A DNA stretch of 53,618 nt, the filler included, from Jimgerdemannia flammicorona (taxonomy: Eukaryota): the NCBI GenBank assembly GCA_003990765.1. It is 3 parts of 3 records of this genome, joined end to end, with 100 filler letters (N's around TTAATTAATTAA, not from the genome) between each part and the next. Parts side by side here need not be neighbours in the genome. Positions count along the whole stretch, not along the records: positions 1 to 17,807 come from RBNJ01002398.1; 2 more parts are not named here. One strand, written 5' to 3'. Below, piece after piece: positions 1 to 53,200 of the stretch; position 1 is the stretch's first letter, and every line of letters begins with the position of its first letter. The position numbers were made by a program, and so were the translations under genes. The notes beneath the pieces are model-generated. The model saw nothing but the letters and a program-made list of their open reading frames with translations, had not been told where the DNA came from and did not search any database.

Positions 1-1530
1 TTTTTTACTCTCTCTTGGTATCACTGGCCTCCTGGTATCCAGCATTGTGATATTGGCCCCTATACTTGCAGTCTCATTCCATCTCTCCTCTGGAATATCC
101 ACTAGCTCATTCTCACCAACTACTACCATCTATCTCTCTTTCACCATATCAGGAACTCCAAAGTATACTTGCTGGACACTATGCATCAGCACATCCTCTA
201 CTATCTTGCTCCATCCAGCTAGATCTCTCCTGACAAGAGAAGGAGTGTCATCCAATTCCTCTTCCCAGACCTCAAATATACCATCAGCATAAGGATCATT
301 TCATAGCATCTTCCTGGCCCCATCCAGGCCCTCCTTCCTATTTTCTCCTTCCTTACTAGCCCAGATACTTGCTTTGGTCTCTCCAGACTCTTCAGCTCTA
401 CTAGCATTCTTCTTCACCCCTCTATCCATGCTCACCAACAACTCCCTCTGTCTCTTACACCCTTGAGCCATCTCCCACTGCCTCTTGTCTGTGTGAATAT
501 ACTTTCCATCTATAATTTCCAAATGTATAGCCTCTATATATATCTTCCAGGTCTTTGTTCTCTACTCTACTGCTTCACTTATCTTCTCTAGAGCCTTTAG
601 CAGATTCTCCTCCTCCTCCTTACTCCCCTTCATCCTTGATACCTTACAGATGAAGGCCCCCCACAACATTACTAAAGGCCAGTTACTCATCTTCTCTATA
701 GTCTCTCTCTCTGCTAGTCTAATTCTGACATCAACATCTCCAGTTCTAAAAGTGGTCTCCTCCTACATCTGGAATTCAATATTGACTATATTGCCATACT
801 CTGCTATCACCTCCTCCACCCTCCTCCTAGTCTCAACCTTTGTCACCATAGGTATCCCCTTTACTAACAACTGAACCACCCTGGGGTTCCACCTTAAACA
901 TTGTACCATAGGGACTACTACTTCTCCTACTACCACTCTAGTCTTCAAAGCTTCCTCCAGTAGACCTGCCTCCTCAAAACCTATCTCAACTCCCTCCAGT
1001 CCCTTCAGAAACTTCACCAAGACAGCTTCCATTACTTACTTCAAGATAATCTCCAGAACCATTCTCACCATTATAGCTAAGCCCTGGAAGCACAAGGTCA
1101 CTGCAAACTTCAAGATCAACTTCTTGAGTAATAGTGCCACTACCAGCCCTGTCACACCATCTACCAGATCTTCTTTCCTCTTTGGGCCCATCTGCTCAGC
1201 TCTGCCATAAACAGTCACATATGGATTTTTTTTTTCTGATTCTCAGTTATACTACTATCAGCAGTCCTCCCTCTACTTCCAGCTGCTGCTCTATCAGTCC
1301 TTTCACCCACCAGCTGAGGTTCAGTACCTCTCACTTCTCCTTCCCTCTACTTTTCCTTCCCTTCTACCTGCTTGCTATAAGTACCAGTAGGCCATCCTTT
1401 AGTTTTCAGTATATCCACAAAGCTCCTCTCTCTCTACCCTCCTACCTCTTCTCCAGTGCCACTACTACTACCAGAACTGCCTTGTCCACTCAGACCACCA
1501 AAAGACTTTATCTCTAGTCTATACCCTCAT
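1..1530 (-). mobile_element. Degraded L1/Tx1-like LINE, 5'/ORF1 region (runs off the window edge)
   Basis: Minus-strand peptides (VTGLVVALLLKKLILKFAVTLCFQGLA; AVLVKFLKGLEGVEIGFEEAGLLEEALK; DKRQWEMAQGCKRQRELL) match the ORF1 peptides at 44628-45635, which precede an APE endonuclease. Many stops, CpG absent. Right boundary approximate. Confidence 0.75.
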
Positions 1531-1599
1531 CTGATATATTGCCAGTCAAAGGCTCTAGATCTACCTAATCTAGTATATACATCAGCTTGCTTATTAGTT

Positions 1600-3945
1600 G
1601 CTATAACTCTAGTATCTTTCTCTAATAAATGGTTTAAAAGTGTGTTTCAAAGTTTGTGTTATGTGAATAATAGTGTATACCTTAGATTGCTCATCAGTTA
1701 CCATATTGCTAGTATCTTTTCTCCAAAAATGAAGTCTTGAGTATTGTTAGAAGTTTATATAATCTGAATATTACTGGAAAAAGATACTAATAGAGTCATT
1801 CTCATATATCTTAAAATTCAATGTAACTGGGATTATATTATCTTCATTCTCCTCTTCATTTTTTATATCTCTCACAGTTGTACTGAAGTCAGTAAGAGAA
1901 TCTGGGAATGAGAAAAGGAAGTTGTTGATATTATCTTCTAATAAAATAAGTAGGTGACTATTATTCTCCAAGTTGTCTGAGAGAGTGATATCATCAAGGA
2001 GTATAAGGTCATTCTGCTCTTGAGGTCTCCAGTCAATAGTGAGGCTATCTACAAAGTAGAAAACATCTGTAAAGTTCTGGGAGTAGCAGACTCTCAATAA
2101 AGGGCCTTGAAATAGTACAATCAGATCATAAATGAATTGGTCTGAATTGTTCTCTAGAATGGAGATTCTAAAGGTCTTGAACCTCATCACTCTTAACTGT
2201 GATAGTAGATTGGACCTCTTCTGCAACTATTTTCTTGAGGTAGTCTGCATGGCAGCTTATCAATTCTTAGATATTAGAGACTTTGACATATTCTAGATTG
2301 AGAATGGTCCAGAGTGTAAGTCTGAAGATCTGGTAAAATCTTTTGGTCAGTTTTTATTCATATCTGTCTATATATATAATATCTACAATTTCTTGAGAGC
2401 TGGCTTATGTGAACTCTTGATAAAAATGATGTCTCAGCTTATATTCTTGTTATATCCAAAGATACTCAGCAGTGGTGGTAATTCTTATCTCCATTTCTTA
2501 GTAGTTGAGAATATAGTAGTAAGGGTCCCTTATAGAGGTTCAGACTAGGAGTCCTTCTTATATGCAGCCTCATTGTTCTCTTGATATTAGTAAATATCTA
2601 TTCTTGAACTGATAGATCTGGATAGCTTCTTAATCTGGTAGTTTAGTAGATAGTAGGTATTTTGTTTTATAGTAAGTCTTTTATTTATAGTTGATACTTT
2701 ATATTTTTTTCTCTTAATGCTTCTTTTATATCTTGAAGGTCTTCTCCTTTAGTCCAGAGAGTAGAGTTATCTGACTAGTGGTAGTATATTACTAAGGTTA
2801 TTATGAGTTATTATGAGTTCAGATACAGATCATCTTATGATCAAGATAAGTTATAGTTGAGTCACAATTTGTAACTAGTAGCTTTACAAAGTCAAAGCAG
2901 TCTTCTAAATTCTGATATCACTGGTTTTGAAGGTATTATTATATCTACTACTTGCAAAATTAGAGCTATTCTTGGCAGTAGTAGTTATATAGAAATAGTA
3001 GATATTGGTTTTCTTTTTTTTTAGACTATTGGTATATTTGTGAGAACTAGCTATTCTTGTCTAAGACAAGGGCTCCCATTGTCATAGCTGGGGGTTTGAA
3101 CCTCTTGGAAATAGATTTTTCTATAATCTGAAACAATTTCTAATAGTAATATCTATTATATAAATAGACTTGAGATTGGTTTCAATATTGTCAGCTTTCT
3201 TGAGTTCTATATGAAGTATCTGTCATTCTCTAATAGAGATAATACAAATAGAGTGAACAGAGTTGTTTAAATACATTTTACTTCTACTGAGTAGTAAGGT
3301 CTTATATGGTTGTAATGTATCTTAGTCTTGAGTATTACTCTATCTAGGGTCTTGAGTTGATAAGTATAGTTCATGAACTTTTGATAAATAAGATAGGGTT
3401 CTTTCTATTTCAGTTTGAGTTTGGTACTCCAGTTTTCTTTTATGATAGTATAGTATACTAAGACTTATTGTCTAATAAACAGGAGTTCAAGATCTGCTTT
3501 ATAGTTATAGTACTTCTTTTGTTACTCTTATACTTTTACAATAAAACTTTATACTTGTTGACATACTTTATATAACTGAGTGATCTCTTTAGTGACTCAT
3601 TTTGCCAAATCTAGCCAGATTGGTTTAGCAGTATCTTGTACTTCTTAGCTATATATTAAATAGAAAGAAGTCTATTAGGTAACAGTTACTTTTGAAGTAT
3701 AGATACTAAATAAGATTACTAGAAGATAGATGTCCTAATTCAATTGATCTCTGGTCTTGCTGAGGCCTCACTTGATGGTCTAGTTAATTTGTTCAGTAAG
3801 TTCATTTACTTATAGGTGATAGACTATTATTGGGTGCAGTTTGATCTTAAAGTTGGCTGCAAAGATCTTTATGATTTTATTGATAAATTCTTAATCTTAG
3901 TCTGTCATGATTTTCTTGAGGATACTATAATGGCTAAAAATTTTA
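1600..3945 (-). mobile_element. Degraded Ty3/Gypsy 3' part (integrase C-terminal half plus accessory ORF), related to the element at 47.8-53.2 kb
   Basis: 3061 'ctaagacaagggctcccattgtcatagctgggggtttgaacc' aligns with about 50244 'ctagggtgagggctcccatagtcgtggctgggggttcgaacc'; 3790-3940 aligns with integrase at 50980-51130; 2300-2470 translates to QEYKLRHHFYQE...FYQIFRLTLWTILNLEYV (accessory ORF). Boundaries approximate. Confidence 0.75.
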
Positions 3946-3949
3946 CCAT

Positions 3950-6900
3950 ATAAGTCAAATAGTGGTTCTAATTATCTTACTTATAAAAAATATAGTTTCT
4001 GAGTATTTGCTCTAAGGTTTTATTCATATACTCAATTTTTTTATCAGTTTATAGATAAAAGGCAGTAGAGATGGCTAATTAGGTTCTTAGAGTCTTGAAG
4101 AGAGTTTGCTAGAAGTAACTAGTAAACTTAGAATCATAGTTACTGACAATTACTTATAATAGACCATAGTTATGAAAGATGAACTTGAAGAAGATTCTTG
4201 TAATCTTAGATATAGTAGTATTAATAGTAGTAGATTTAGCAACCATAGCCTTAGTTAGGTAGTTAATAAATATAATAATAGCATCAGCACCAGATTGAGT
4301 TCATAGTAGTTAAGTTACAAAGTCCATTGTAACTTACTCAAATTTCTTAGTTGTGATTGACAGTAGTTATAGCAATTAGCTAGAACTTAGTTGGTAGGCT
4401 TGTTATACTGATAGAGATTATATAATATAGTTCTTGATTTTCTTAACTATATTTAGTCAATAGTAGTGGTATTGAATATTCTTAACAGTTTTCTTAATTC
4501 TAAAGTAACCAGTAAGTAGGGAGTCATAGTGTTCTTGTAGTATCTTATAGTATAAATTCATATTGTCAGATAGATAGACTTTGTCTTGATGGTAGATCAG
4601 ATTGTTCTCAATAGTATATATATTCTTGAGCTTATTTGAGAAAACTCTAGTAGTAATAGTATTTTCTATATAAGCTTGTCAGATTTGGTTTAAAAATTCT
4701 GATACCAGGATAACTTGTATAATTGTAGTGAGGTCTAGGTATCTAGATAAGATATCTGATACTATAAGTATTTTGCCAGACTTGTAAATAATTGTCAGAT
4801 TGAAAGTTTGAAGATTTGAGCTCTACTTAGCTTATAGATATAACAGAGTAATTAAGTATTGATATACTTGAGTGATTGATAGTCAGTAATAATATTAAAC
4901 TTAATACTTTCTAGATATCATTATTAGTAATCTAGTATATATATTATTGCCAGTAGCTCTTTTTTATGAGTGGCTAGCTTTTGTTCAGCTAGAGATAACT
5001 TGTGAGACTCAAAGGCAATAGAGTAATATTCTTTACTATCATCTTATAATAGGACTGCTCTAATGGTAAACTTTGATACATCAGTAATAATATTGAATTT
5101 CAAACTTAAATCTATATTATATAAGACTAAAGTATAGGTTAAATGGTTCTTAAGTTCTTAAAAGGCTTATTGACAAAAGAGGTCTCAGATGTAGAATATA
5201 TAGTAATCAGAGTTAGGGGTCTTTCTCATGAGATTAGTCAGTAGCTCAGCAATATCAGAGAAATTTCTGACAAAATAATAGTAGTAGCCAGTTAGACCAA
5301 GAAAGGACCAGAATTCTATGAGATTTGATAGAATGGACTATTCTTGAATTGCCTCTATCTTATATAGATCTACTTGAATTTCTTATATAGAGACAATGTG
5401 GCCAAGATATTCAACTTGTTCTTTAAATAATTCATACTTTTTAAGCTTTATATATAGTTTATATTTTTGTAAAATCTCTAGAACTATTCAAATATATTTG
5501 AGATATTCTTCTTTAGTTATACTAAAGATCAGGATATCATCAAGATATGTATATTAATAAGAAGATAAATAGTTGGTTCTTAAATATCTTATTCATGAGA
5601 GTCTAAAATATAGTAGGTATATTAGTAAAATCAAATACTAAGACTAGAAATTTATAGAGTCTAAAGAGAGTTATAAATACAGTTTTGGAAATATCTTCTA
5701 GCTTGATTCAGATTTGGTGGTAATCCAATATGAGGTCCAGCTTAGTGAAGTACTTGGTATTCTTGAGAGTATTGAAAATTTGATCAATTAAGAGTAGTAG
5801 ATATTGGATCTTGACTATAAGTTTGTTAAGTATATAGTAGTCTATATATATTTATAAAGTACTATCTTTCTTTTTGATAAATAGGACTGGCAAACCAGAG
5901 GGGAATTTGCTTGGTTAAATGGCTCTTTATATAAGTAACTCTTTTAGTTCTTTCTGACTACTTCAATTTCAAGAGATGATATATAATATATATATTTCTT
6001 GAGTGGTATAGCTCTTGAAAATCAGTTCAATTTCATTAGTACTCTAAATAAGTCAATTTAATCTGGGTTAGATTTAGATTGGATTCAGATTAAATCTCAT
6101 CTGGATTAACTCAGATGAGATTTGAATCTCATCTGAATTAATTTAAATCAACTATTATTTTGATTTCCAAATTAAACAATTAAATGTTTACATTAATAAC
6201 TCAATGAATAATCATCCAATTTTGATGATATTAGTGTCATTTGAAAGCTCTTAATAAGGTCTTTCTAATAATATCAAGTATATTGAAATTAGATCATATG
6301 TTGCTAAATTATCAAGAAAAACATCTGACTCACCAATTTTGAAAATTATTCAACTTACTGATTTTGGAAATTTCTTCAAAAGAATATTTTTCTTAATAGC
6401 TCAGCAATATATAATCTGATTTTAATATTCTTAGTATCATTAGAAAGGCCTTATTAAGGACTTTCAAATGATATTAAGATTATCAAAATTGGATGATTAT
6501 TTATTGAGTTATTAATATAAATATTTAATTGTCTAATTTAGAAATCAAAACAATAGTTAATTTGAATTGATTTAGATAGGATTCAAATCTCATCCAAGTT
6601 GATCAGGATGGGATTTGAATCTGATCTGGATTAGCTCATTTGGAGTACTAAATTTTATAATTGACTTCTTATATAGAGGATAAATCAGATAGCTTGTCTG
6701 AGAAGATATTCTTGAATTATTCAAGCAATAACTTAATACTTTCATTAATTGATAGCTTTTTGTCTTACTTCTTGAGACAGACTATTGCAATAAAGACATA
6801 TACTATCTTCTTGAGTACTTTCTTATATTATATTGTTGATAGTATTATAATCTGGATTTTTTTCATAGACTTGTCTGTCTTAATAATAATATTAACTCTT

Positions 6901-8900
6901 TCTTGAAGTAGAGTAACTTCATTCTTGTACTAATCAATATTTGGATTATATTTGGTAAGCTAGGATTTTTCTAAGATCAGATCATAATCTCTTAGTAATA
7001 TAACTTCTCATTTTCAATATTTCTAAATCTTAATAGATAGTTTAATAATAATTGACTTAATAAAATATAGTATACTATCATAGTAATTATACTATTATTC
7101 TTGGATACTAGTTTGATAAGGATCTTGAGGTTTTTATAAGATTCTAATTGATGAAGTTTCTTGTAGCTCTACTATCTATAAGTATTTGAACTTCTTTTCC
7201 TTTAACTAGATTTTTGAAAATGAGTATAGCTTGAGCTTAGTTTTCAGTAAGACTTGCTACTTGATTAGTACTATTAGTTTCACTTAGTTTCAAATAGTTT
7301 TTAGACTTCTGTAACCTTAGGTTGACTGACTTTTTCTAGGATTATTTATATAACTTAGTCTCCTTTATTAACTATATAGTCTTAATTTTTCTAATTGATG
7401 AGTAAGATTTAAACTTATTCTCAATAGTCCGAGTTAATAATATTAATATCAATATCTAAATAATATTTGATACTGAGTTCTGATTATAGTATAATCTTAA
7501 CATAATATTCTTTAGGATATTAGATTATAATTCCTGTAAGCACTAGAGTTTGGCCTTTAGCTGGAATAGTGACTTATTTGATGGAGTATAGGTCAAGGCC
7601 AATAATCTCTTCTGATTGATATTAAGAGATCTGGACCTTCAGATAAAGCTTTTTAATTTTAATTTTAGGTTGACTAATAGTAAAGCTAATAGATATATCC
7701 TTGAACAATATAGTAACTGGTCTTGAGAGTTCACTGATCTTTTTAGGATATTTGGTTGAAATTTATCCAATTTGATAACAGAAGAAGTAAGCTTCAGATT
7801 TCTTTAGATGATCTTTTTCTTCTGAAATAAACTTGGTATTTTTCTTATTCATAGTATCTAAATCTATTAGTGTTGGGCTAACTACTTTGGGTTGGTTCTT
7901 CTGATGGTTCTCAAAGTAATTCTTCTTATAGTACTCTGGTTTAAAACAGTTACTAAAGATGATGATATCAAACCTATTAGCAATTTTCATAGCTTTATTG
8001 AGAGTCTATAACTTCTTCAGCTTGATCTTAACTTGTATATTTCCTTTCAGATCTCAGATATAGTGATCTATCTTTTCATCTTCAGCTATTACTAGTAGTT
8101 TGAGTAGAATTGACAGAAATTATACATTATAACTTTATATAGACTTAAGTTACTTAATATTTACTAGCTTATATCTAGCTAGTATAATAGCATTAATAGA
8201 CTTAAACTACTTATAGAGAGTCTTCTTAAAAGATATCTAATCTTGAATTCTTATATCTAAGTAGATAGTAGTTATTATGATATAATTGTACTACTAAATA
8301 GCTGTATTTTCTTAAAGAAGTGTAGTGACAAATTAGACTTATATATCTTCTTTTATTCTTGTAAGTTCAAAGTATTGGTCCAACTGAAAGATCTATATAT
8401 ATATCTGTAGTCAGTTCTCCTTAGTAACTATTAAAGATATCTGGCTTTAGCAGCTTAAAGCTAACTGATATAGTAGTAGAATATGATATAGTTATAGTTC
8501 TTATTTTCTGATATTTTACTTATACTTAAAGTAGTCAGATCTGATAGACCATAGAGATAATCATTTTCTCTAAGTTGACTTATAGTTCTATCATCTGCTT
8601 CTTCTATAATAGGGGAGTTTAAACAGTAAGCTGGTTCTCTATAATTTATTTAGACTTATGTAACTAGTTGTGACTAATTTCTTAATAAGATAAAATATAA
8701 TAATACTACTACTATCAAGTATAATAGTTTTAGTTTCTTTAAGAGAAAGTAGTTAAATCTAATAGTTTTGATGGGCCTAAAGTAGCTCAAAGAGATACTT
8801 ATAGATTTAAGTATTCTTGAAGGAGTTTTGAGAGAAAATATTCTAAGCTTTATTTAGATAGAAAATAATAATATTTATATAAAATCTAAAAGAAAGATCT
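3950..8900 (-). mobile_element. Heavily mutated Ty3/Gypsy gag-pol (different family from the neighbouring element)
   Basis: Minus-strand remnants in RT-RNaseH-integrase order: YLDDILI (about 5525-5550), FNLTIIYKSGKILIVSDILSR (about 4745-4805), VTMDFVT (about 4315-4335), IVSNYDSKFTS (about 4120-4150). Riddled with TAA/TAG stops. Boundaries approximate. Confidence 0.75.
6037..6650. mobile_element. Foldback/MITE-like element with about 290-bp inverted arms, inserted in the Gypsy pol
   Basis: Starts ta-gtactctaaataag and ends ctcatttggagtac-ta. Internal arms are reverse complements (e.g. 'aataatcatccaattttgat' about 6207 vs 'atcaaaattggatgattatt' about 6482; 'catttgaaag' vs 'ctttcaaatg'). TA on both sides; no ORF. 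Confidence 0.8.
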
Positions 8901-9843
8901 AGAAGAATCTCAGAAAAAAAAAAAAAAAAATTAAGAAATAAGTTCTTGGCAAAGATGATTAATAGAATTCTATAATATTCCAAAAGGTTCTATAACTAGA
9001 TATTTAATACTGCTTAATACTAAGAAAAGACAAAAAATATTCTAGTAATATCAAAAGATTTTTAGATATTTGAAAAATACTAGAACATAGTAGAATATTC
9101 AAGAAAAAATAAGAAAAGATAAGAAAAGATAGCAAAAGATGTGAAAAGGTATTAAGACTAAAATATAACTATAAAATTATTACAATTTAGCTTCATAATT
9201 ACTCTAAAAGTAGAAATTATTCTCATTTTTTAAAAACAATCAGACTATATATAACTTTTACAATAAATGATATCATAATAGATAGACTTAAATTTCAAAT
9301 ATTTATATATATTAAAACTAATCTGTTTTTGATTTATTTTTAATTTATTTTTAATCTTTTTTTAAATATGAATTATTTTCTTATTTATCTTTAGATCTAA
9401 TATATTTTAAACTCAATATATTTTTATTATTTTTAATATAATAATATAAAAGATAAAAGATAAATTAATAAATTATCAATTATATATAAATAGATTATAA
9501 AATTAAATGTAAAAATAAATTATATAAACTAATTATTCTTTTAATAATAGAATTAAATTTGATTTAACAATTTTTTTTTTATATTTAAATAATCCAATAG
9601 ATATTAGAAAGATTAATGTTTTCTTACAACTATAAAAATCAGATCTCTTGGAAAAATAGTAATACATCCTTACTGTCAGCTCTTGTACAGCTTTCTGGCT
9701 CTTTTATGCAGCCTTATGCAGCCTTCACTGCATAGTGTATACACAAAAGGGCGTAGTGAGAAATAATCGCGTGGACTTACAGTCACAACATGTTCGCTTC
9801 TGGTTAAGTCTGTAGCAACAAGACCCATTCCAATCTCAGCACC

Positions 9844-12800
9844 ATGCTTCGCGTGATCTCGCTTCTTCCCTCCGCTGCGGAGATCATCTGCCTTGTTGCT
9901 GGTCCGGAGGTCCTCGTCGGTCGTTCCCACGAAGGCATGTCAAGCCACATTGTTTTACGAAACGCCCCTTCACGTTCGATTCTGATCGCGCTTGCAGCTA
10001 ACGTCGCGTCCATTTCACTTCTTTATTAGACGACTTCCCCATGAGCATTACCCACCTTCCCGTCCTCACACGTGCAAAAACTGTCTTTACAAATTCTGAG
10101 GATGTCAACCGACAAGTTTCGGAATCATTGGCACAAGGGAACAGCTTGTATGAATTGGACGTGGAGCTACTAAAGGCATTAAAGCCCGACGTTATCGTTA
10201 CCCAGGTAGGTGGATCTTCTGGCGAACTTTGTGGCCTTTATTCATGGACGGAGAAACAGATTCAACACGATTTGAAGCCTTGCTTTCCATCTTTATTTTT
10301 CTTTTAATAATATGCACTATACTCACTTGTGTTTCGCTTGCACCATTAAATCGCCAGGATCTTTGCGATGTCTGTTCCATCGACCTCGTCACTGTCGAAC
10401 GAGTGGTGAAAGATATGTCCCCAGGTAATTGGCAATCTCGCCATTTGTGGCGATATATTCGTTTCATTGGGATGTAATCCAAATAACGACTGCCGCGGTG
10501 GCAATACCTCTGCGACGGGAAAGCCTCGCTTTTCATAATACTAACCTCTTTGACTTTAATTTCATATCGCGCCGCCGTTCTTTCTCTTCAACACAGCTCC
10601 TAAAGTCGTCACTCTCAACCCCCAGTCCCTCTCCGACGTCCTTGAAAGCGTCACTCTTGTCGGTTCGGCTCTGTCGCTCGACGAAGCCGCAGCCCGAGTC
10701 CGCGCCGAATTGCAAGGCAGGATTGACGCGGCCACACGGGTTGCCTCCGAGGGCTTGTTCAAGCGCGGCGGCAAGAGACCGGCTGTGGCGTTCGCGGAAT
10801 GGATCGATCCATTCTTTGTGGGAGGGCATTGGTATGTTGCAAAAGGAGGAGAGTATTTCCTGAAAATATGCTAAGAGGAATTGGGAGTGGGGACGGAGAT
10901 ATCGTTTTGGGTTGATGGAGCTCTGGAGAATTTTGTGTATGTATCCATCTTGTGAATCCACCGCTGATCATCAACTACGCAGGACTCCTCAAATCATTGA
11001 GCTCGCTGGAGGTGCGCATCCGCTCAATCCCTCTAAAGACCAATCGGGTGCCGGCAAATCGTGAGTAACTCTCGGTTCATATTCACATACTATCACTGTT
11101 CCTGATCTCTTCTTCTATATCATCATCGATTATTCACGCGACATTTTCTCTCCATAACCCGGACGCTTTCGCCCTTGTTTTCCGAGGCAGCTTTGCCATT
11201 CCCCCCTCCCGTGTCCTCGCTCAGCCCACCGACATCCTGATAATCTGTCCCTGCGGCTTGGACATTCCGACCGTGGAGCGTGAGCTGGACGTGCTGACGA
11301 CAAAGGCGCGCGACAAAGGCGAACCGAATTGGTGGGAGGTGATGAGAGAAGAGTGCAAGGTGGCGATCGTTGATGGGAATCAGGTGGGTGAGATAATTTG
11401 TGGGGTTTGATAGAGAAAGGGAGAAAGAGAGACGGAACTTAGGCTGGATCTAATACCAAGCAAGTGAAACAGAAATTGTGCAGTGTCCGTGGCAGAATTC
11501 ATAAGAACTTGTCTGCGGACATTTATTTGCGACTTTTTCCTTTTGGTTCTAAAACCTCATGTATATTGTTTTACTATAGATGTTTAACCGACCCGGTCCC
11601 CGTAAGTATGCATAGTTCTGACCCCCTCCCAAAATTATATTATTATTTCACTAATCGTATGATGATCACAATTGTTTTTCATAAATTATATAAATGTTTT
11701 TTCCTCCCATCGCTGCATATCAAACTTGTTTAGGTCTTGTCGACGCTCTCGAATGGCTTACCGGCTTGTTCAATGACGTCCCCGAGATCATCCCGCGTGA
11801 TTTCCCATACAAGCTTACGGGAGAGAATGCAAAGGATGAGAGCGCGGTGTTGGCGAGGGAAATGAAGTCGTTGGTACGCGAATAAAAAATTGTTTGAATG
11901 AGTGAAGCTCGAAATGTTCGAAGGCGCGGTATATGACCGGGCGTGAAGACAAGAGTTGTTCGTAACTATCGCTGTATATATCTGTAGGATGCCGAGCTTG
12001 CATGGTTGCTGACCGTTGATTTACCGCCGACGCTGGCGAATATATGTACGGAACTTACTGTGAGTTTTGAAGGCATTCCTTTTAAGCAATCGAATATGCA
12101 TGGTGGAATCATACTGTGAGTATCTCAAATCTCATGAACTGTACACGCCATCCCGTATAGCGATGTGTCAAAGCTTCGGCTTCGGGAGCACAAGGTATTA
12201 TATTCGTTCGAGACAAAAGGAATGATTGAAAGTATGACGTCTTCGGTTGTATGAATTTATTCGTATGGACTATTCACTTTATTTTCTCGACTCTCAGATC
12301 CGAATACTAAGCCGGGCACGCTCGCACTGTCTTCTGTCAAGTATGTTTAATTGGGAACATTTATGTTTTTCGGCATCATTTGGTGGGCGTTATCAGGACA
12401 TGTATGTGCTGACTGACTGCTCATCATTCTGTTTATTTGTCAGTAACGATTCCTTGAAAGGGTATATCACCATCAACGGCAGCCAGATCGTGAAAGGAGT
12501 CCGTTTTCAATTGTGTTTGTACCTTGGGATGACTCCTCCCATTAATTATAACATTGTCATTCTGAGCGTTATTTGATTCCCGCTCCACTTTTTTTTTTTT
12601 TTTTTTTTTTTTTGTAACTTCAGGAGCTTACGATCAAGCTACCAAATTACAACCGCGGTAATCCGTTTAAAACGAACCTTGTGGCGTCAAAACCATATCC
12701 CTTGGATCAGGTTGGGATATTTATAGTATGCTCTGATCTCATGAATGTGGAGGAAGCTCATTTCTTTTATTGAGATTTGATTTGCTGGATGCAAAACGTA

Positions 12801-13705
12801 GGCGCAACATGCCAAGAATTATACTCTATTGGCGTTGAAGGCACTGGAGTCGTATACTCAGCCGTACTCGAAGCAAGATGCAGTTGAGGTTTGTTCGCAT
12901 TTCGATTCCTATTTGTTATTAAGGGTGGGGGATGAACAGGCTGGTGTTTGTAGGACCAGAGGTGATGGAAAGACTAAAGGAATATTGTTTGTTTTTGTTT
13001 TGTTTTTTGTTTCCCAATATTTTGTGTATATCATACAGGCCACCGATATTCTCCTCAAATACGTAAACTGGGCCCGATCGGCGCTGACCCACGCCAGCGT
13101 AGAAAAGCTCTTCCCTTACAAAGTCTGCGACTCCAGCGTATGGCAACAATTACTATCGCCATTGCAACTGAAGCGAAGAATCAATACGTATTCTAATCCC
13201 GCCTTCTATTTTTACACAGCTCTTCACCCCCGAGCTCCCCGACGACCTCGTCGTCGAGTTCTTCATCTCCGATGCCTTCGTCGTTTGCTCTATCTCCGCG
13301 CTGCAATACCACGCGAGCATGCCCACCACGTCGGCTGTGGCCAAATTGTTGGGTGGCCCCAAGCCGGTGAACAAAGTGGTGTATCCTTTTTGGGCGCGGG
13401 ATGAGTTAGGAATTTAGTGAGGCACGAAAATTTGAATGGGTGATGATGGAAAATGACGGCTCCACCCACAGAAATAATTACAGTAATGCCTCCTTGACAG
13501 AACTACCTCCATCGTGGAGTTTCTCCACTATTCTCTCCAATTATCCTCATCCCGAAACAGCAAATACAAAGACAAGTACGTGGTCATCGTCGACGAGATC
13601 GTGATTGACTCGAAATCTCCCACGCTGGTGGATATGCTTGCGGCTCTGAAATCGGTAGAAGATGCATGCCGACAGTTCCGGACCAAATTGAGTCTGTTTT
13701 TGTGA
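9844..13705 (+). CDS. RAV2: 17-exon gene: N-terminal BtuF/TroA-like (Fe/B12 periplasmic-binding) domain fused to C-terminal Rogdi/Rav2 domain, about 594 aa
   Basis: Hand-spliced exons: 9844-9934, 10030-10205, 10358-10424, 10597-10831, 10983-11060, 11191-11383, 11580-11601, 11734-11873, 11988-12059, 12161-12194, 12298-12340, 12444-12498, 12624-12710, 12802-12888, 13039-13137, 13220-13380, 13561-13705 (1785 nt, in frame). BtuF-like motifs: RVISLLPSAAEI, LVGRSHE, LKPDVIVTQDLCDVCSID, EWIDPFFVGGHWTP, ICPCGLD, DGNQMFNRPGPRLVDALEW. Rogdi motifs: ELAWLL, LKGYITINGSQIVKG, FTPELPDDLVVEFFI, DEIVIDSKSPTL. The two domain calls are firmer than the fusion itself. Confidence 0.8.
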
Positions 13706-13985
13706 GAGTAATAAACAAAGCGTTGATAATTTCCAATTCGGATCCGGGATCGTCTTTGATTAAATAGATGCGTTGTCGCGGAAATCTCAAAACGGTTGAA
13801 TGTTACACCTCCGCGAAGCTGATAGTCTATGGTCGTCCATAGTGATCACGGAAGATCTTGCCTTTCTTGACGGGGCTTGGAATTCGCTGGATAACGCCCC
13901 CTTTTTCCGCCCAAATCGCCACGACATATGCGAAGAGAAACAATAGACTTTTAGTCGGGTCTCGTTGACACTACTGACGTGCGAA

Positions 13986-30050: not shown

Positions 30051-30487
30051 AGGTTGTAGTATAAGTAAGAAAGCTTTATATTTATATTAGATTTGAAAAG
30101 TAGAGAAGAATTTGAAGTATAATATTTTGAGTTTATAAATTTTAACAGTAAGTTTATTGGTAAGTTTATGAATATGAAATATACTGATCTAATATAGAAT
30201 TCTTTATCTGATTAGCTTTACACTTTTGTACTTATATATATAATATACTTATACATAGCACTTATGCTTACTTAATATACTTGTACTTGCTTAATGTACT
30301 TGTGCTTACTTAATATACTTATATATCATCATATTAACCAAATATAAGTAAGCAAGCTTTATATTCACTTATTAAACTTTCTGATATATATATATTCATT
30401 ATAAATATTACAGATACAAAAAGAGATCTTTATCTAGAAAAATTGTATCTTTTCTTATTTCTCCCCTTACTATAATCTCTTTATGCC

Positions 30488-31325
30488 GTTGACCTCAAGG
30501 ACCTGTTGGAACGTACCCTGCCCGCCACCACGACCCCCTCCGCCGCCAAACCGACTGCCCTACCCTCTCCCGACTACTACACCACCCTTCTCTCCGAGCT
30601 TGAATCCATTGGCTGGCATCGCGTCCACGACATTGACCCCTCGCTCGCCGAGTTTTCCATCCACATCACCGACACCTCCCGCCGCACGCACAAGTTGCAC
30701 GTGCGCCTCCCGGCCACGTACCCGTTCTCTGCACCTGCTATCACGGCCGACCTACCCGTTGCCGCCGCGGGGGCCGAGGGCAAGGGGAAGAGGCTGGCAG
30801 CGCTGGTAGAGCATTTCACGGGCGAGGTCAAGCGGTATGCTGATCTGTGGGATTGTCTGGACGATCTGGATGGGCAGACCTGGAGACTTGAGCCTGAGAA
30901 GCCCACGAGGGCAGAGGCATGGAGAAGGCTCGCATTGGGTGGGTTGCAACCACTGCTCTCTCCAGCTCGACCTAGACCCGACGGATCCAGTGCGGTCCCT
31001 ACGACCCACCTCTTCGGCCCAGAGCCGCGTATTGCGCCCCTTCGCGAAGCCATGGCGCGTAACCTGCACCTATGGTCTCGCGACCAGACCCCCCGGGCGA
31101 ATCTGGAACGCGTGCTGGGCATAACATTCCCCATGGGGAGTCTGCGGCGGGCGGGGCTGGAGCGGACGTTGAGTGCGGCATTTGCTACGCGTACAGGGAC
31201 TCCATCGCAAGTGCTTATTTGAGTGGCTTCGCGCGATCCCGTCAACACGCCAGAGTTTCAACATGCTGTTTGGCAACTGCCCATACTGCAATGAGGCGAT
31301 GACGACGACAATGGTTGATCGGTAG
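30488..31325 (+). pseudogene. FANCL: FANCL (Fanconi anaemia E3 ubiquitin ligase) homolog, 5'-truncated and frameshifted
   Basis: DLKDLLER, YYTTLLSELESIGW, LWDCLDDLDGQTWRLEPEKPTR, NLERVLGITFP, ECGICYAYR, HRKCLFEWLRAIPSTRQSFNMLFGNCPYC are spread over different frames. Shifts near 30945, 31010, 31135 and 31200; part of the RING and the N-terminal domain are missing. Confidence 0.85.
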
Positions 31326-50700: not shown

Positions 50701-53200
50701 CTTTTGGCGTTCTTGTGCCTTGGCAATAAATCCTCGTGCTTGCTGGCATATGTTGTGTAACCGGGTGATCTCTTCTGTGACTCATTTTGACAGATCTAGC
50801 TGGACTGATTCAGTAGGATCTTGTGCTTCTCGGCCATACACCAAATAGAAGGGGGTCTGTTGGGTAGCAGTTGCCTTAGAGGTACGGATACTGAACAGAA
50901 TTGCTGGTAGATAGATATCCTAGTTTAGTTGATCTCCGGTTCTACTGAGACCTCTCTTGATGGTCTGGTTCATTTGTTCAGTGAGTCCATTTGCCTGTGG
51001 GTGGTAGGCTGTTGTTGGTCATAGCTTGATCTTGAAGTTGCTCGCAAAGGTCTTCATAGCTTGGTTGATGAATTCTCGGCCTTGGTCTGTAATGATTTCC
51101 TTGGGCACACTATGGTGGCTGAAAATTTCATCATACAGGATCCCAATAATTGTCTGGGCATTGGCAGTCTCGATGGCAAAGGCTTCGGGCCATTTTGTCA
51201 GGTTATCTTCAATAGTGAGGATGTAGCGTCTTCCTCGGCTGGTTACTGGTAGGGGTCCAATAATGTCTATTCCCAGTCTTTGAAAGGCTCCAGCTGGTGC
51301 TGCGATTGGTATTAATGGTGCTCTGTCGGTAGGCTTTTGTCGGTATCTTTGGCAGGTATCACATTGTTGAATGTGCATTGAAATTTGTTTTCTCATCTTG
51401 GGCCACCAGTATCGCTTCTTGATTCTTGCAATTGTGGCACCAATTCCTTGGTGTGCATTTTGGTCATGATTTGTTGTCAGGATCTTCAATATTTCTTCTT
51501 CTCTTGGAACTCGGGTGTATTGCTCTCCTTCTACTCTCCAAAGTTCGCCATCACCTTCTTGGAATTTCTTGAAATTCCTTTGGATAAACAACTTGTGGGC
51601 TGGTTGGATTCCTTTCTTGAAGCTTCTATGGTGTAGACTCCAGGTGAGGGCGAGGCACAATTCTTGGTTCATTTGGGCAAGCGGGAAGCAGCCTTCTCTC
51701 ATGGGGGCTCCTTCCCTTCTTGTTGGTTTCGCGGGATTCTTGACAGAGTATTGATATTGGAATTCTTAACACCTTTCTTATAGACAATAGTGAACTGATA
51801 TTCTTGCAGAGACATGATCCATCTAGCAAAGATTCCTGAGGGCTCCAGCTTGTTGAACAACCATTGTAGAGCTTGATGGTCAGTGATGAGGGCAAATCTC
51901 TTTCCCAAAAGATAGTGTCGGAAGTGGTCCACAGCCCAAACTACTGCTAGGCATTCCAACTTAGTGGCTCCATAGTTCGCTTGTGTTTCATTCGTGGCCT
52001 TGCTAGCATATTTGATAACATGCTCCCTCTTCTGGTCATCTTGCTGAGACAGAATTGATCCAAGTCCTAAGGCTGAGGCATCAGTTGCCAGGATGAACGG
52101 TTTACCAAAGTCTGGTCGCACCAGGATGGGGGCTTCGGTAAGGGCCTTCTTGAGTAGGTCAAATGACTTTTGTTGTTCTTCTTTCCAGTAGAATGGTTGG
52201 TCCTTCTTGGAGATATCTCGGAGAGGTGTTGCCTTGTCTGCAAACCTTGGGATGAATTATCGATAATAGGATACTAGTATAAGGAAGGATAGGGTCTCCT
52301 TTGCTGAGGTCGGGGTTGGGTAGTTCTCAACTTTCTCCACCTTGTGGGGGTCGGCATGTGTTCCTTGAGCTGAGACAACATATCCCAGATATTCGACTTG
52401 ATGTTTTCCGAAGAAGCACTTCTTGGCATTGAGTCTGAGTCCTGAATTTCGAATGGTATTGAATACTTTGCAGAGGTCTTGCAAATGCTACTTGAATGTC
52501 TCAGAGTAGATGATTACATCATCTATGTACACTAGTACATTTCTTCCAATAAGGTCCCGGTAGACATAGTTCATCATTCGTTGGAATGAGGCAGGTGCAT
52601 TGCAGAGTCCAAAGGGCATTCGTAGGTATTCATACTGTTCTCATCTGGTGATGAAGGCCATCTTGCAGATATCTTCTTTGGCAATGGGTATTACTTGGAA
52701 TCCTTGGAACTGGTCGGTAGTGGTATGTATTTGGCTTTTCCGAGGGCATTGATGAGGTCATCAATTCTTAGCAGTGGGTAGGCATCTTCTGTGGTGACTT
52801 TGTTGAGTTTTCTGAAATCCACGACTAATCTCCATCCTCCTTTCTTTGGTACTATGATTGCTGGTGAGGCCCAGGGGCTTGATGATGGTCTGATGACTCC
52901 ATTTCATAGCATTTCATCTATGTATTGTTGTTCGAATTCAATCAGATGATGTGGTGTTCGGTAGGGTCGTTGTCGGATTGGTCTTGCATCTCCAGTATGT
53001 ATAGGATGTTCTCTATATTGATATGGTGGGAAGTTATCATATGTGGTGGTAAATATATCTTTGTACTCCTCTATCAACTCCTGTATTTGTTGTTGCTGGT
53101 CTTTGGTTAGAGTTGTCTCGATGTCAACAGCTTTGATTGCTGAATTTGCTGAGTCTTCCTCTCTGGTACTGTCAGTCTCACCAGAGAGGGCTTGCCGTTT
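47793..53200 (-). mobile_element. Ty3/Gypsy LTR retrotransposon (RT, RNase H, integrase, accessory ORF, 3' LTR region); relatively young, pol has a few stops
   Basis: [11 protein letters not shown] (about 52505-52535), FILATDASALGLG/LECLAVVWAVDHFRHYL (51699-52121), integrase H..H/CDTC and GIDIIGPLP, ITDQGREF (51019-51702). RT-RH-IN order. Candidate LTR end at TG 47793; inner LTR boundary not determined. Confidence 0.92.
48973..49920 (-). CDS. Intact accessory ORF (about 315 aa) of the Gypsy element, downstream of integrase; function unknown
   Basis: Open from ATG 49920 (MPPTRR...). Apparently helical N-half with YEIGHRLCNE and VHQIFRHILW, acidic C-half. Homologous remnants in three other elements in this window. 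Confidence 0.7.
   Translation of the reverse strand: MPPTRRTNQTSRRSTPLPGPKTLIFEAIKKAIWCPDTSEYLNFYTENLGHFTNYQYIMTQQLKDTTERMTLWHDYEIGHRLCNETQEDDREGLITELITTSWLIKRALRVHQIFRHILWAIAHLQGVTTGSLSHLSTEDADWIESEVANSIGSNRIAVGSQQTEPTQPGFHTTPLQDNHQGHLMSLIEMFEGLPITIEAPIGATPTTHHPVSHNSHLIIWEPNQEEAQEVPVFKEETQELQDPAPEETPSDTETDEPSEEEEEQQRVYQSSVYIQAVQELENVVEDDWPLFYPLTSWPALPPFEERYDEEEITTQ

What the first reader, a model, noticed from the sequence alone, without database searches (positions are those of the whole stretch)
9844..13705. Apparent fusion of a bacterial-type B12/metal-binding protein to Rogdi/Rav2 (V-ATPase assembly factor)
Seen: the BtuF-like frame runs ...LEWLTGLFNDVPEIIPRDFPYKLTGENAKDESAVLAREMKSL with no stop up to a GT donor at 11874 (gtacgc). 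A 114-nt intron with a branch-like cgtaac ends at AG 11987 and continues in phase 0 into DAELAWLLTVDLPPTLANICTELT and a complete Rogdi domain. There is no intergenic space. Known: Rav2/Rogdi is a RAVE/Rabconnectin-3 subunit needed for V-ATPase reassembly; BtuF/TroA-fold proteins bind cobalamin, siderophores or metals in ABC uptake; non-Dikarya fungi retain cobalamin-dependent enzymes; animal B12 handling passes through acidic lysosomes. Inference: a cytosolic ligand-binding domain tethered to RAVE could couple cofactor or metal status to vacuolar acidification. This is my best candidate for an undescribed system here.
Basis: partly seen in the sequence, partly recalled or inferred. Interest (0 to 1): 0.85.

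Follow-up and report, generated by a model that had tools for sequence, protein, structure and literature searches.

The report
Expressed BtuF-like–Rogdi gene fusion
In this root-associated fungus a conserved cytosolic protein shaped like a bacterial vitamin B12/haem-binding protein is joined in one reading frame to Rav2/Rogdi, a factor that helps assemble the vacuolar proton pump, and the join is real but so far seen only in one small fungal family.

Summary
Spliced cDNA contigs from two runs carry one unbroken 594-aa frame from ATG 9844 to TGA 13705, including the 11873/11988 junction. No contig covers intron 11874-11987.

An annotated 557-aa protein of Endogone sp. has the same junction and both Pfam domains. 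Two Jimgerdemannia flammicorona models match the window's protein over 404 aa.

It lies inside exon 8, about 11814-11843. The 114-nt intron is Rogdi's own conserved first intron.

The N-terminal half belongs to a leaderless family of about 310 aa. It is found in non-Dikarya fungi, algae and bacteria and keeps invariant His/Cys motifs. Its fold is closest to haem-binding proteins and BtuF.

6 of 80 bacterial relatives lie near a cobalamin riboswitch; 5 of these sit in or beside riboswitch-preceded TonB-receptor uptake operons.

Among the 120 listed relatives, only 3 Endogonaceae proteins carry the Rogdi fusion.

Coupling of ligand state to V-ATPase assembly is untested. Separate isoforms cannot be excluded.

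Verdict: a real, lineage-restricted new domain architecture of moderate interest.

The parts
9809..9843 (+). 5' UTR, at least from 9809
   Evidence: X1 record 1 starts at 9809. An in-frame stop precedes the frame that opens at 9808, and 9844 is its first ATG.
9844..11813 (+). BtuF-like (Peripla_BP_2) coding part, residues 1-314. Exons 9844-9934, 10030-10205, 10358-10424, 10597-10831, 10983-11060, 11191-11383, 11580-11601, and 11734 onward.
   Evidence: Joints; frame; family alignment and invariant residues. Stand-alone homologues end 3-5 residues after the FPW(K/E) motif.
9935..10029 (+). Intron 1, GC..AG type
   Evidence: Joint 9932/10028 with a 2-nt ambiguity in three runs. Only 9934/10030 keeps the frame.
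11814..11843 (+). Fusion seam inside exon 8 (residues about 315-324). No stop, no start, no intergenic DNA.
   Evidence: The Gigaspora and Paraglomus Rav2 N-termini align from here. Human ROGDI residue 8 aligns to residue 325 of the model.
11844..13705 (+). Rogdi/Rav2 coding part. End of exon 8 to 11873, then exons 11988-12059, 12161-12194, 12298-12340, 12444-12498, 12624-12710, 12802-12888, 13039-13137, 13220-13380, 13561-13705 (TGA 13703-13705).
   Evidence: Joints; frame; identity to P0002; P0002 matches human ROGDI 5xqi at E 6.1e-13 and yeast Rav2 9cop_y at 4.9e-4.
11874..11987 (+). Intron 8 (114 nt, GT..AG, phase 0), Rogdi's ancestral first intron. If retained, it carries an in-frame TAA at 11883-11885 and an AATAAA at 11881-11886.
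   Evidence: Spliced out in X1 and X2 contigs. Same position and phase as in the stand-alone Rogdi of L005. Sequence.
13381..13560 (+). Last intron, spliced in some contigs and retained in others
   Evidence: Joint 13380/13561. X1 record 2 runs unbroken over 13351-13590.
13706..13900 (+). 3' UTR, at least to 13900
   Evidence: X1 record 3 covers 13561-13900 and runs beyond.

Best explanation
This is one gene, made when two complete genes merged end to end in an ancestor of Endogonaceae.

Shown: the mRNA is spliced into a single 594-aa frame. Residues 1-314 are a full member of a leaderless, hence cytosolic, BtuF/PhuT-fold family, with every family-invariant residue kept. Those include sHE, TQxxCxVC, GHWtP, pCG and DGNxxFNRxGPR. 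Residues from about 316 to 594 are a full Rogdi/Rav2, starting at its normal N-terminal helix. The upstream stop codon, the spacer and the Rogdi start codon are gone.

Inferred: the Rogdi half still serves as the Rav2 subunit of the RAVE complex, which reattaches V1 to Vo of the V-ATPase. No other Rogdi was found for these fungi. Rav2's N-terminus lies at the Rav1 propeller-1 interface, so the ligand-binding domain would be held at that foot of RAVE.

Inferred: the N-terminal domain binds a tetrapyrrole-type or metal cofactor, cobalamin being the leading candidate, in a cleft lined by conserved Cys/His.

My reading is a bifunctional fusion that keeps both ancestral jobs. Whether ligand binding modulates RAVE is open.
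For: - **Single transcript.** Single spliced contigs span both halves in X1 and X2, and no contig covers intron 8. The frame is 594 aa.
- **Same fusion in relatives.** The orthologous fusion with the same junction occurs in Endogone sp. (P0001; Rogdi_lz 71.1 bits, Peripla_BP_2 30.9 bits). Identity between the two genera, over aligned ungapped positions, is 85% (262 of 308) in the BtuF-like part, 76% (16 of 21) in the seam and 75% (152 of 202) in Rogdi.
- **Seam position.** The seam aligns to the first residues of stand-alone Rav2 of Gigaspora and Paraglomus and to human ROGDI residue 8. Intron positions match a stand-alone Rogdi.
- **Invariant residues.** All 40 columns conserved at 90% or more across 152 aligned sequences (150 family members, the Endogone N-terminal part and the window's own model) are kept in the window's protein.
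- **Fold.** The AF2 model of P0004, the closest stand-alone homologue listed, has pLDDT 96.9. Its best PDB matches are PhuT, RhuT, BhuT, ShuT and BtuF.
- **Bacterial context.** 6 of 80 bacterial loci hold a cobalamin riboswitch. In L057 the leaderless member sits between a TonB receptor, a PF01902 protein, BtuR, FecCD, an ABC ATPase and a second binding protein that does carry a leader.
- **No second copy found.** No other Endogonaceae BtuF-like protein or Rogdi appeared.
- **Rav2 geometry.** The position of Rav2's N-terminus comes from passages of PMC11648922.
Against: - All runs are held as contigs. They cannot show transcript ends or rare isoforms. An AATAAA directly follows the in-frame TAA in intron 8, so a short stand-alone BtuF-like mRNA is conceivable.
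- No protein-level evidence exists.
- No whole genome was available, so a second Rogdi or BtuF-like gene was excluded only through protein-database searches of limited sensitivity and length range.
- The ligand is not identified. 74 of 80 bacterial relatives show no cobalamin riboswitch in the held flanks, and most neighbourhoods examined are unrelated to B12.
- The fold and Pfam tests were run on orthologues, not on the window's own spliced protein.
- Other one-off fusions of this family exist in gene predictions: asparaginase, PNP_UDP_1, FHA-RING, DUF1764. A single lineage's fusion is therefore weak evidence of a functional link.
Confidence: 0.66

Rival explanations
1. Dual-output locus. Besides the fusion, the locus makes the two proteins separately. 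A BtuF-like protein would end ...KSLVRE through intron-8 retention or intronic polyadenylation at the AATAAA of 11881-11886. A Rogdi would be made from an internal start site using ATG 11862. The fusion would be only one of several isoforms.
For: The in-frame TAA at 11883-11885 and the AATAAA at 11881-11886 lie right behind the donor. The Met of ...REMKSL is kept in Endogone. Intron retention does occur in this gene, at the last intron. Contigs drop rare variants and short tips.
Against: No contig covers intron 8 in X1 or X2, although the retained last intron is seen. A Rogdi started at ATG 11862 would lack about 15 residues that align with the N-terminal helix of stand-alone Rav2 and human ROGDI.
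Confidence: 0.2
2. Ligand-gated RAVE. The tethered binding domain senses cobalamin, haem or metal status and thereby regulates V-ATPase reassembly and vacuolar acidification. By extension, the stand-alone family works with RAVE in other eukaryotes.
For: The fusion has been kept in two genera with both halves conserved. The family has links to B12 uptake operons in some bacteria. Rav2's N-terminus sits at the Rav1 interface, so a fused domain could affect complex formation (passages).
Against: The fusion is seen only in Endogonaceae: 3 of the 120 listed relatives, and 0 of the 28 long family members scanned, carry Rogdi. In Linnemannia gamsii the locus tags of the two genes are far apart. A Paraglomus-like Rogdi has a different upstream neighbour. 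Nothing here tests regulation.
Confidence: 0.12
3. Artefact: a chimeric assembly or annotation, or read-through between two neighbouring genes, with no fused protein.
For: The deposited gene models for this locus are imperfect. P0002 and P0003 start inside intron 4, and P0001 skips two exons.
Against: There is no stop codon and no spacer between the halves in the genome. Spliced cDNA contigs from two studies carry the whole frame. The same junction occurs in a second genus.
Confidence: 0.02

Closest known systems
Rav2 (yeast) / ROGDI (human), subunit of RAVE / Rabconnectin-3
   Same: The C-terminal 270 or so residues align end to end with human ROGDI (5xqi, residues 8-280, E 6.1e-13) and with yeast Rav2 (9cop_y). 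The orthologue passes the Pfam Rogdi_lz cut-off. Introns sit as in a stand-alone fungal Rogdi.
   Different: It carries a 315-residue N-terminal domain fused directly to the first helix. Stand-alone Rogdi of Gigaspora (279 aa) and Paraglomus (247 aa) has none. No paper in the held library mentions Rogdi together with 'periplasmic binding protein'.
BtuF and the haem-binding proteins PhuT/ShuT/BhuT/RhuT (class III periplasmic binding proteins of ABC importers)
   Same: Same two-lobe fold with a long backbone helix. Foldseek gives E 1e-12 to 1e-10 and TM up to 0.84 when normalised to the target. The orthologue passes the Pfam Peripla_BP_2 cut-off. Some bacterial family members lie in riboswitch-controlled B12 uptake operons.
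   Different: Only 14-19% identity, and no PDB hit by sequence. There is no signal peptide; the chain starts at the first strand. The invariant Cys/His motifs define the family alignment here; I did not compare them with the BtuF sequence. In L057 and L061 a separate binding protein with a leader is present beside it. It occurs in a eukaryotic cytosol, where no BtuCD partner is known.
Leaderless Peripla_BP_2 proteins fused to DUF5522 and Diphthami_syn_2 (uncharacterised)
   Same: Same family as the N-terminal half, at 40-55% identity. 22 of the 28 long members scanned carry DUF5522, and 7 carry PF01902.
   Different: The fungal members, this one included, lack DUF5522 and PF01902. Here the partner is Rogdi. 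No paper in the held library mentions DUF5522.
CBA1, algal cobalamin acquisition protein 1
   Same: It is a eukaryotic protein whose predicted structure resembles BtuF and which is tied to B12 use. CBA1-like hits are reported in some non-Dikarya fungi (PMC10828217, section 10 read).
   Different: By that paper CBA1 is about 490 aa, is ER-targeted, and its listed conserved residues include no Cys or His. The family here is about 310 aa, leaderless and Cys/His-marked. Identity or non-identity was not tested, because the paper's supplement could not be read and no CBA1 sequence was at hand.

Membership tests
Rogdi/Rav2 (Pfam PF10259) | Profile match above the curated cut-off | tested here: met
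   The Endogone orthologue P0001 scores 71.1 bits against a 29.4 cut-off. P0002, identical to the window over 404 aa, carries a precomputed PF10259 hit. The window's single exons score only 19-20 bits each.
Rogdi/Rav2 (Pfam PF10259) | Full-length homology to solved ROGDI and Rav2, including the N-terminal helix | tested here: met
   P0002 residues 158-426 align to 5xqi residues 8-280 at E 6.1e-13, and to 9cop_y at E 4.9e-4.
Rogdi/Rav2 (Pfam PF10259) | Binds Rav1/DMXL and supports V-ATPase assembly | not testable with these tools
   No genome or Rav1 sequence of this organism was available.
Peripla_BP_2 / class III binding-protein fold | Profile match above the curated cut-off | tested here: met
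   P0001 scores 30.9 bits against 27.5, which is marginal. Stand-alone relatives carry PF01497. The window's exons score 14-16 bits each.
Peripla_BP_2 / class III binding-protein fold | Two alpha/beta lobes joined by a long helix | tested here: met
   The AF2 model of homologue P0004 has pLDDT 96.9 and a helix at 139-166 between the lobes. 173 PDB matches reach E <= 0.001, all listed ones of this fold. This was tested on a homologue, not on the window's own chain.
BtuF (periplasmic B12-binding protein of BtuCD-F) | Export signal and periplasmic location | tested here: not met
   The protein and 18 inspected relatives start at or within about 25 residues of the first strand, and I saw no hydrophobic leader. 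This was read by eye; no signal-peptide predictor was run.
BtuF (periplasmic B12-binding protein of BtuCD-F) | Cobalamin binding and the B12-contacting residues | not tested
   Identity to BtuF is 14-16%. No residue-level superposition or binding assay was possible.
BtuF (periplasmic B12-binding protein of BtuCD-F) | Genomic link to B12 uptake genes or a cobalamin riboswitch | tested here: inconclusive
   6 of 80 bacterial relatives have a cobalamin riboswitch in the held flanks (745 kb in all). 5 of those 6 lie in or beside riboswitch-preceded TonB-receptor uptake operons. The other 74 have none.

The most novel reading that the evidence does not exclude
The fusion is a Rosetta stone. On this reading the leaderless BtuF-like family is an unrecognised cytosolic cobalamin (or other tetrapyrrole) carrier. 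It would be present in B12-using eukaryotes such as non-Dikarya fungi and algae, and in bacterial B12 operons. It would act at the vacuole/lysosome surface together with RAVE. In Endogonaceae the two partners have become one chain, tying release or handling of the cofactor from acidic compartments to V-ATPase assembly.
Probability: 0.1. Interest if true: 0.85.

Novelty: new variant of a known kind. Interest (0 to 1): 0.5.

Why it matters
The molecular role of Rav2/Rogdi in V-ATPase reassembly is still called unclear in the RAVE structure paper (PMC11648922, passages). A natural variant that carries a ligand-binding domain on its N-terminus is a ready-made probe of what that end of RAVE tolerates or senses.

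Separately, the N-terminal half points to a conserved, uncharacterised family. It is leaderless, carries invariant Cys/His motifs and occurs in non-Dikarya fungi and algae. Among the named rows there are no members from Dikarya, Mucorales, animals or land plants. In some marine bacteria it sits in riboswitch-controlled B12 uptake operons next to a normal periplasmic binding protein.

That makes the family a testable candidate for an intracellular B12-handling step. If the fusion is merely tolerated, it remains a tidy case of two genes merging seamlessly.

Tried and rejected
- **Complex prediction**. Gigaspora Rav2 (P0121) was folded with the G. rosea BtuF-like protein (P0061). The score was 0.00 and the verdict 'no answer'. 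The alignments were not used by the tool. This is no evidence either way.
- **Whole genome.** None is held, so a genome-wide search for a second Rogdi or BtuF-like copy or for Rav1 was impossible. Within the 53.6-kb window there is no second copy.
- **Metagenome scan for Rogdi relatives**. It returned 7 short loci, none with BtuF-like sequence. The contigs are too short to say much. L005 was useful only for intron positions and the upstream neighbour.
- **Sequence search of P0004 against PDB.** No hit at E <= 0.001. NCBIfam gave only a far sub-threshold hit.
- **DUF6580 neighbour in L022.** I suspected it was BtuM-like. There was no PDB sequence hit, so no such claim is made.
- **CBA1 identity.** Not resolvable, because the supplement was too large to read.
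- **Earlier scan notes.** None for this place.
- **X3 run.** It holds only a 0.06 share of the sampled words. Its support for the key junction is a 9-nt loose end, counted as weak.
- **Greedy ORF calling** in GC-rich bacterial loci gave spurious antisense ORFs. Only 40 same-strand adjacent ORFs, two ORFs flanking the match in L066 and L071, and a few checked operon ORFs were scanned. Neighbourhood counts are therefore partial.
Full report
**1. The observation**

These are the donor gtacgc at 11874, the in-frame TAA at 11883-11885, cgtaac ahead of the AG at 11986-11987, exon 9 from 11988 in phase 0, and an ATG at 11862-11864.

Laying three public runs on 9700-13900 gave spliced cDNA contigs.
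- X1 record 1 is 1675 nt. That equals 35 nt of leader from 9809 plus exons 1-16, summed from the exon list.
- X2 record 5 is 1377 nt and comes from another study.
- Both run as one contig through the BtuF-like exons, across 11873/11988 (skip 114, GT..AG), and on to 13380.
- One search lists fifteen joints. The sixteenth, 12498/12624, lies at a T-run that the tool skipped. It follows from the contig length and from the identity to a deposited protein.
- X3, a root metatranscriptome, supports several other joints but supports the key one only by a 9-nt loose end.
- Depth over 11815-11955 equals exon cover alone, so no contig retains intron 8. A retained last intron (13381-13560) is seen.

Joining the exons gives one 594-aa frame from ATG 9844 to TGA 13703-13705. 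Intron 1 is of the GC..AG type.

**2. Whose gene it is, and what is deposited**

One exon query found a 557-aa annotated protein of Endogone sp. FLAS-F59071 (P0001). It passes both Pfam cut-offs, with Rogdi_lz at 71.1 bits and Peripla_BP_2 at 30.9 bits, and it has the same junction.

Two models named Jimgerdemannia flammicorona BC938DRAFT_476512 (P0002, P0003) also turned up. The last 404 residues of P0002 are identical to the window's model. The window is therefore that species or a near-identical one, going by the source's name for the protein.

All three deposited models are flawed. P0002 and P0003 start in intron 4, and P0001 skips two Rogdi exons. All three nonetheless include the junction. 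The fusion thus exists in two genera.

Identity between the two genera, over aligned ungapped positions:

| Region | Identical / aligned | Identity |
|---|---|---|
| BtuF-like part | 262 / 308 | 85% |
| Seam | 16 / 21 | 76% |
| Rogdi part | 152 / 202 | 75% |

**3. Where the seam is**

Stand-alone homologues of the N-terminal half end 3-5 residues after an FPW(K/E) motif. In the fusion that motif is FPYK, at residues 311-314.

Stand-alone Rav2 of Gigaspora margarita (279 aa) and Paraglomus (247 aa) align from their first residues to the fusion's residues from about 316 onward. Human ROGDI residue 8 aligns to the model's residue 325.

A metagenome contig (L005) with a Paraglomus-like stand-alone Rogdi has its first intron two codons before the ELxWLL motif and its second intron 24 codons later. 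These are the same positions and phases as the window's introns 11874-11987 and 12060-12160.

The two genes therefore merged inside what is now exon 8, at about 11814-11843. The merger removed the stop codon, the spacer, the leader and the start codon. The 114-nt intron is Rogdi's own.

**4. The Rogdi half**

P0002 matches human ROGDI (5xqi) at E 6.1e-13 over residues 8-280, and yeast Rav2 in the RAVE structure (9cop_y) at E 4.9e-4.

No other Rogdi of Endogone or Jimgerdemannia appeared among proteins of 234-748 aa (8 hits in all, and the search has limited sensitivity).

Passages of the RAVE structure paper (PMC11648922) state three relevant things. Rav2's N and C termini contact blades 3-4 of Rav1's first propeller. 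Its first 21 residues are unresolved. Rav2's molecular role remains unclear.

**5. The N-terminal half**

It belongs to a large family (3139 hits at E <= 0.001, of which 120 are listed).

The named rows are stand-alone proteins of 307-336 aa. They come from Mortierellomycota, Umbelopsis, Bifiguratus, Calcarisporiella, Glomeromycota, chytrids, Blastocladiomycota, Chlorella, Parachlorella and Emiliania. No named row is from Dikarya, Mucorales, animals or land plants. Only the three Endogonaceae rows carry Rogdi.

Members begin at the first strand, with no leader.

Forty columns are conserved at 90% or more across 152 aligned sequences (150 family members, the Endogone N-terminal part and the window's own model). 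They include sHE, TQxxCxVC, EWxxP, GHWtP, pCG and DGNxxFNRxGPR. The window's protein keeps all forty.

P0004, the closest stand-alone homologue listed, has no PDB match by sequence. Its AF2 model has pLDDT 96.9 and pTM 0.94. The model is most like the haem-binding proteins PhuT, RhuT, BhuT and ShuT and like BtuF, at 14-19% identity.

Of 28 longer family members scanned:
- 22 carry DUF5522, a CCGxxCRHCPYGH-type motif;
- 7 also carry Diphthami_syn_2;
- 4 have one-off partners (asparaginase, PNP_UDP_1, FHA-RING, DUF1764) and 2 carry no further Pfam domain;
- none has Rogdi.

No paper in the held library mentions DUF5522.

**6. Is it B12-related?**

At least 595 bacterial loci encode relatives. 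The best 80 were kept, with identity up to 46%, and Phycisphaerales rank first.

Rfam scans of all 80 loci (745 kb) found a cobalamin riboswitch in six.

| Locus | Arrangement |
|---|---|
| L057 | riboswitch, TonB receptor, PF01902 protein, the leaderless member, BtuR-type adenosyltransferase, FecCD, ABC ATPase, then a second Peripla_BP_2 whose domain starts at residue 52 |
| L022, L063 | riboswitch, TonB receptor, DUF6580, member |
| L048 | riboswitch, TonB receptor, member |
| L061 | member abuts a riboswitch-controlled operon of receptor, binding protein with room for a leader, FecCD and ABC ATPase |
| L023 | the riboswitch faces another operon |

The other 74 loci have none, and most neighbours scanned are unrelated.

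By my recollection, not measured here, bacterial genomes hold a few such riboswitches per several megabases. One per 124 kb would then be an enrichment.

Non-Dikarya fungi, Endogonales included, keep B12-dependent enzymes (PMC8085122, passages).

Together these results make cobalamin the leading candidate ligand. They do not prove it. The Cys/His motifs would fit a metal or another tetrapyrrole equally well.

Algal CBA1 is a different-looking BtuF-like protein (PMC10828217, section 10). Whether the two families are related could not be tested, because the supplement was unreadable.

**7. How it most likely works**

Shown: one spliced mRNA, one frame, two complete and conserved domains, and the same fusion in two genera.

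Inferred: the product is the cell's Rav2 and sits on Rav1's first propeller, with the binding domain attached at Rav2's N-terminal helix. Both ancestral functions are probably retained.

Nothing here tests whether ligand state changes RAVE activity.

Points against a general partnership:
- The fusion is confined to Endogonaceae.
- In Linnemannia gamsii the two genes' locus tags are far apart.
- The Paraglomus-like Rogdi has a different upstream neighbour.

**8. Open rival**

An AATAAA at 11881-11886 directly follows the in-frame TAA in intron 8. The Met at 11862 is kept in Endogone. Separate short products therefore cannot be excluded from contig data. A Rogdi started at that Met would lack about 15 conserved N-terminal residues.

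**9. Novelty**

The proteins are deposited as hypothetical proteins. The held library has no paper joining Rogdi with 'periplasmic binding protein'.

This is a new domain architecture built from known families, real and expressed but narrow in range. The more general lead is the leaderless BtuF-like family itself.

Noticed in passing
L057 (2020-9299), L022, L063, L048, L061: In marine gammaproteobacterial MAGs a leaderless BtuF-like protein sits inside cobalamin-riboswitch operons. Its neighbours are a TonB receptor, a PF01902 ('diphthamide synthase'-type) or DUF6580 protein, BtuR and BtuCD. In L057 and L061 a second binding protein whose domain starts far enough in to leave room for a leader (residue 52 and 26) sits beside it. 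This suggests an undescribed cytoplasmic B12-handling step.
   Followed up: partly
proteins P0066, P0133, P0164, P0192, P0239 and others: Recurrent three-part architecture of Peripla_BP_2, DUF5522 (a Cys-rich CCGxxCRHCPYGH motif) and Diphthami_syn_2 in protist and metagenome proteins. No paper in the held library mentions DUF5522.
   Followed up: partly
window 9935-10029: Intron 1 of the gene is a GC..AG intron. The joint is seen in all three runs.
   Followed up: yes
window 13351-13590: The last intron is both spliced and retained in cDNA contigs. X2 also holds a variant contig here with 7 substitutions and three indels, which suggests a second allele or nucleus type.
   Followed up: no
window 2001-10000: About 8 kb of very AT-rich DNA (GC 0.26-0.31) lies directly upstream of the gene. 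The genic stretches have GC 0.45-0.54. No long ORFs are present.
   Followed up: no
window 51022-51765 (-): An ORF with Integrase_H2C2 and rve domains, which is a retrotransposon integrase fragment.
   Followed up: no
window 30476-31219 (+): An ORF with FANCL UBC-like domains 2 and 3, which is a FANCL-type ubiquitin ligase gene.
   Followed up: no
window 12589-12613: A run of about 25 T inside intron 12. The read-laying tool skipped it as a repeat, which hid the 12498/12624 joint.
   Followed up: yes
proteins P0001, P0002, P0003: The deposited gene models of this locus are faulty. Two start inside intron 4 with a spurious N-terminus. One uses a different junction (KSL-LEMFEGA-DAEL). The Endogone model retains an intron piece and skips two Rogdi exons.
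   Followed up: yes
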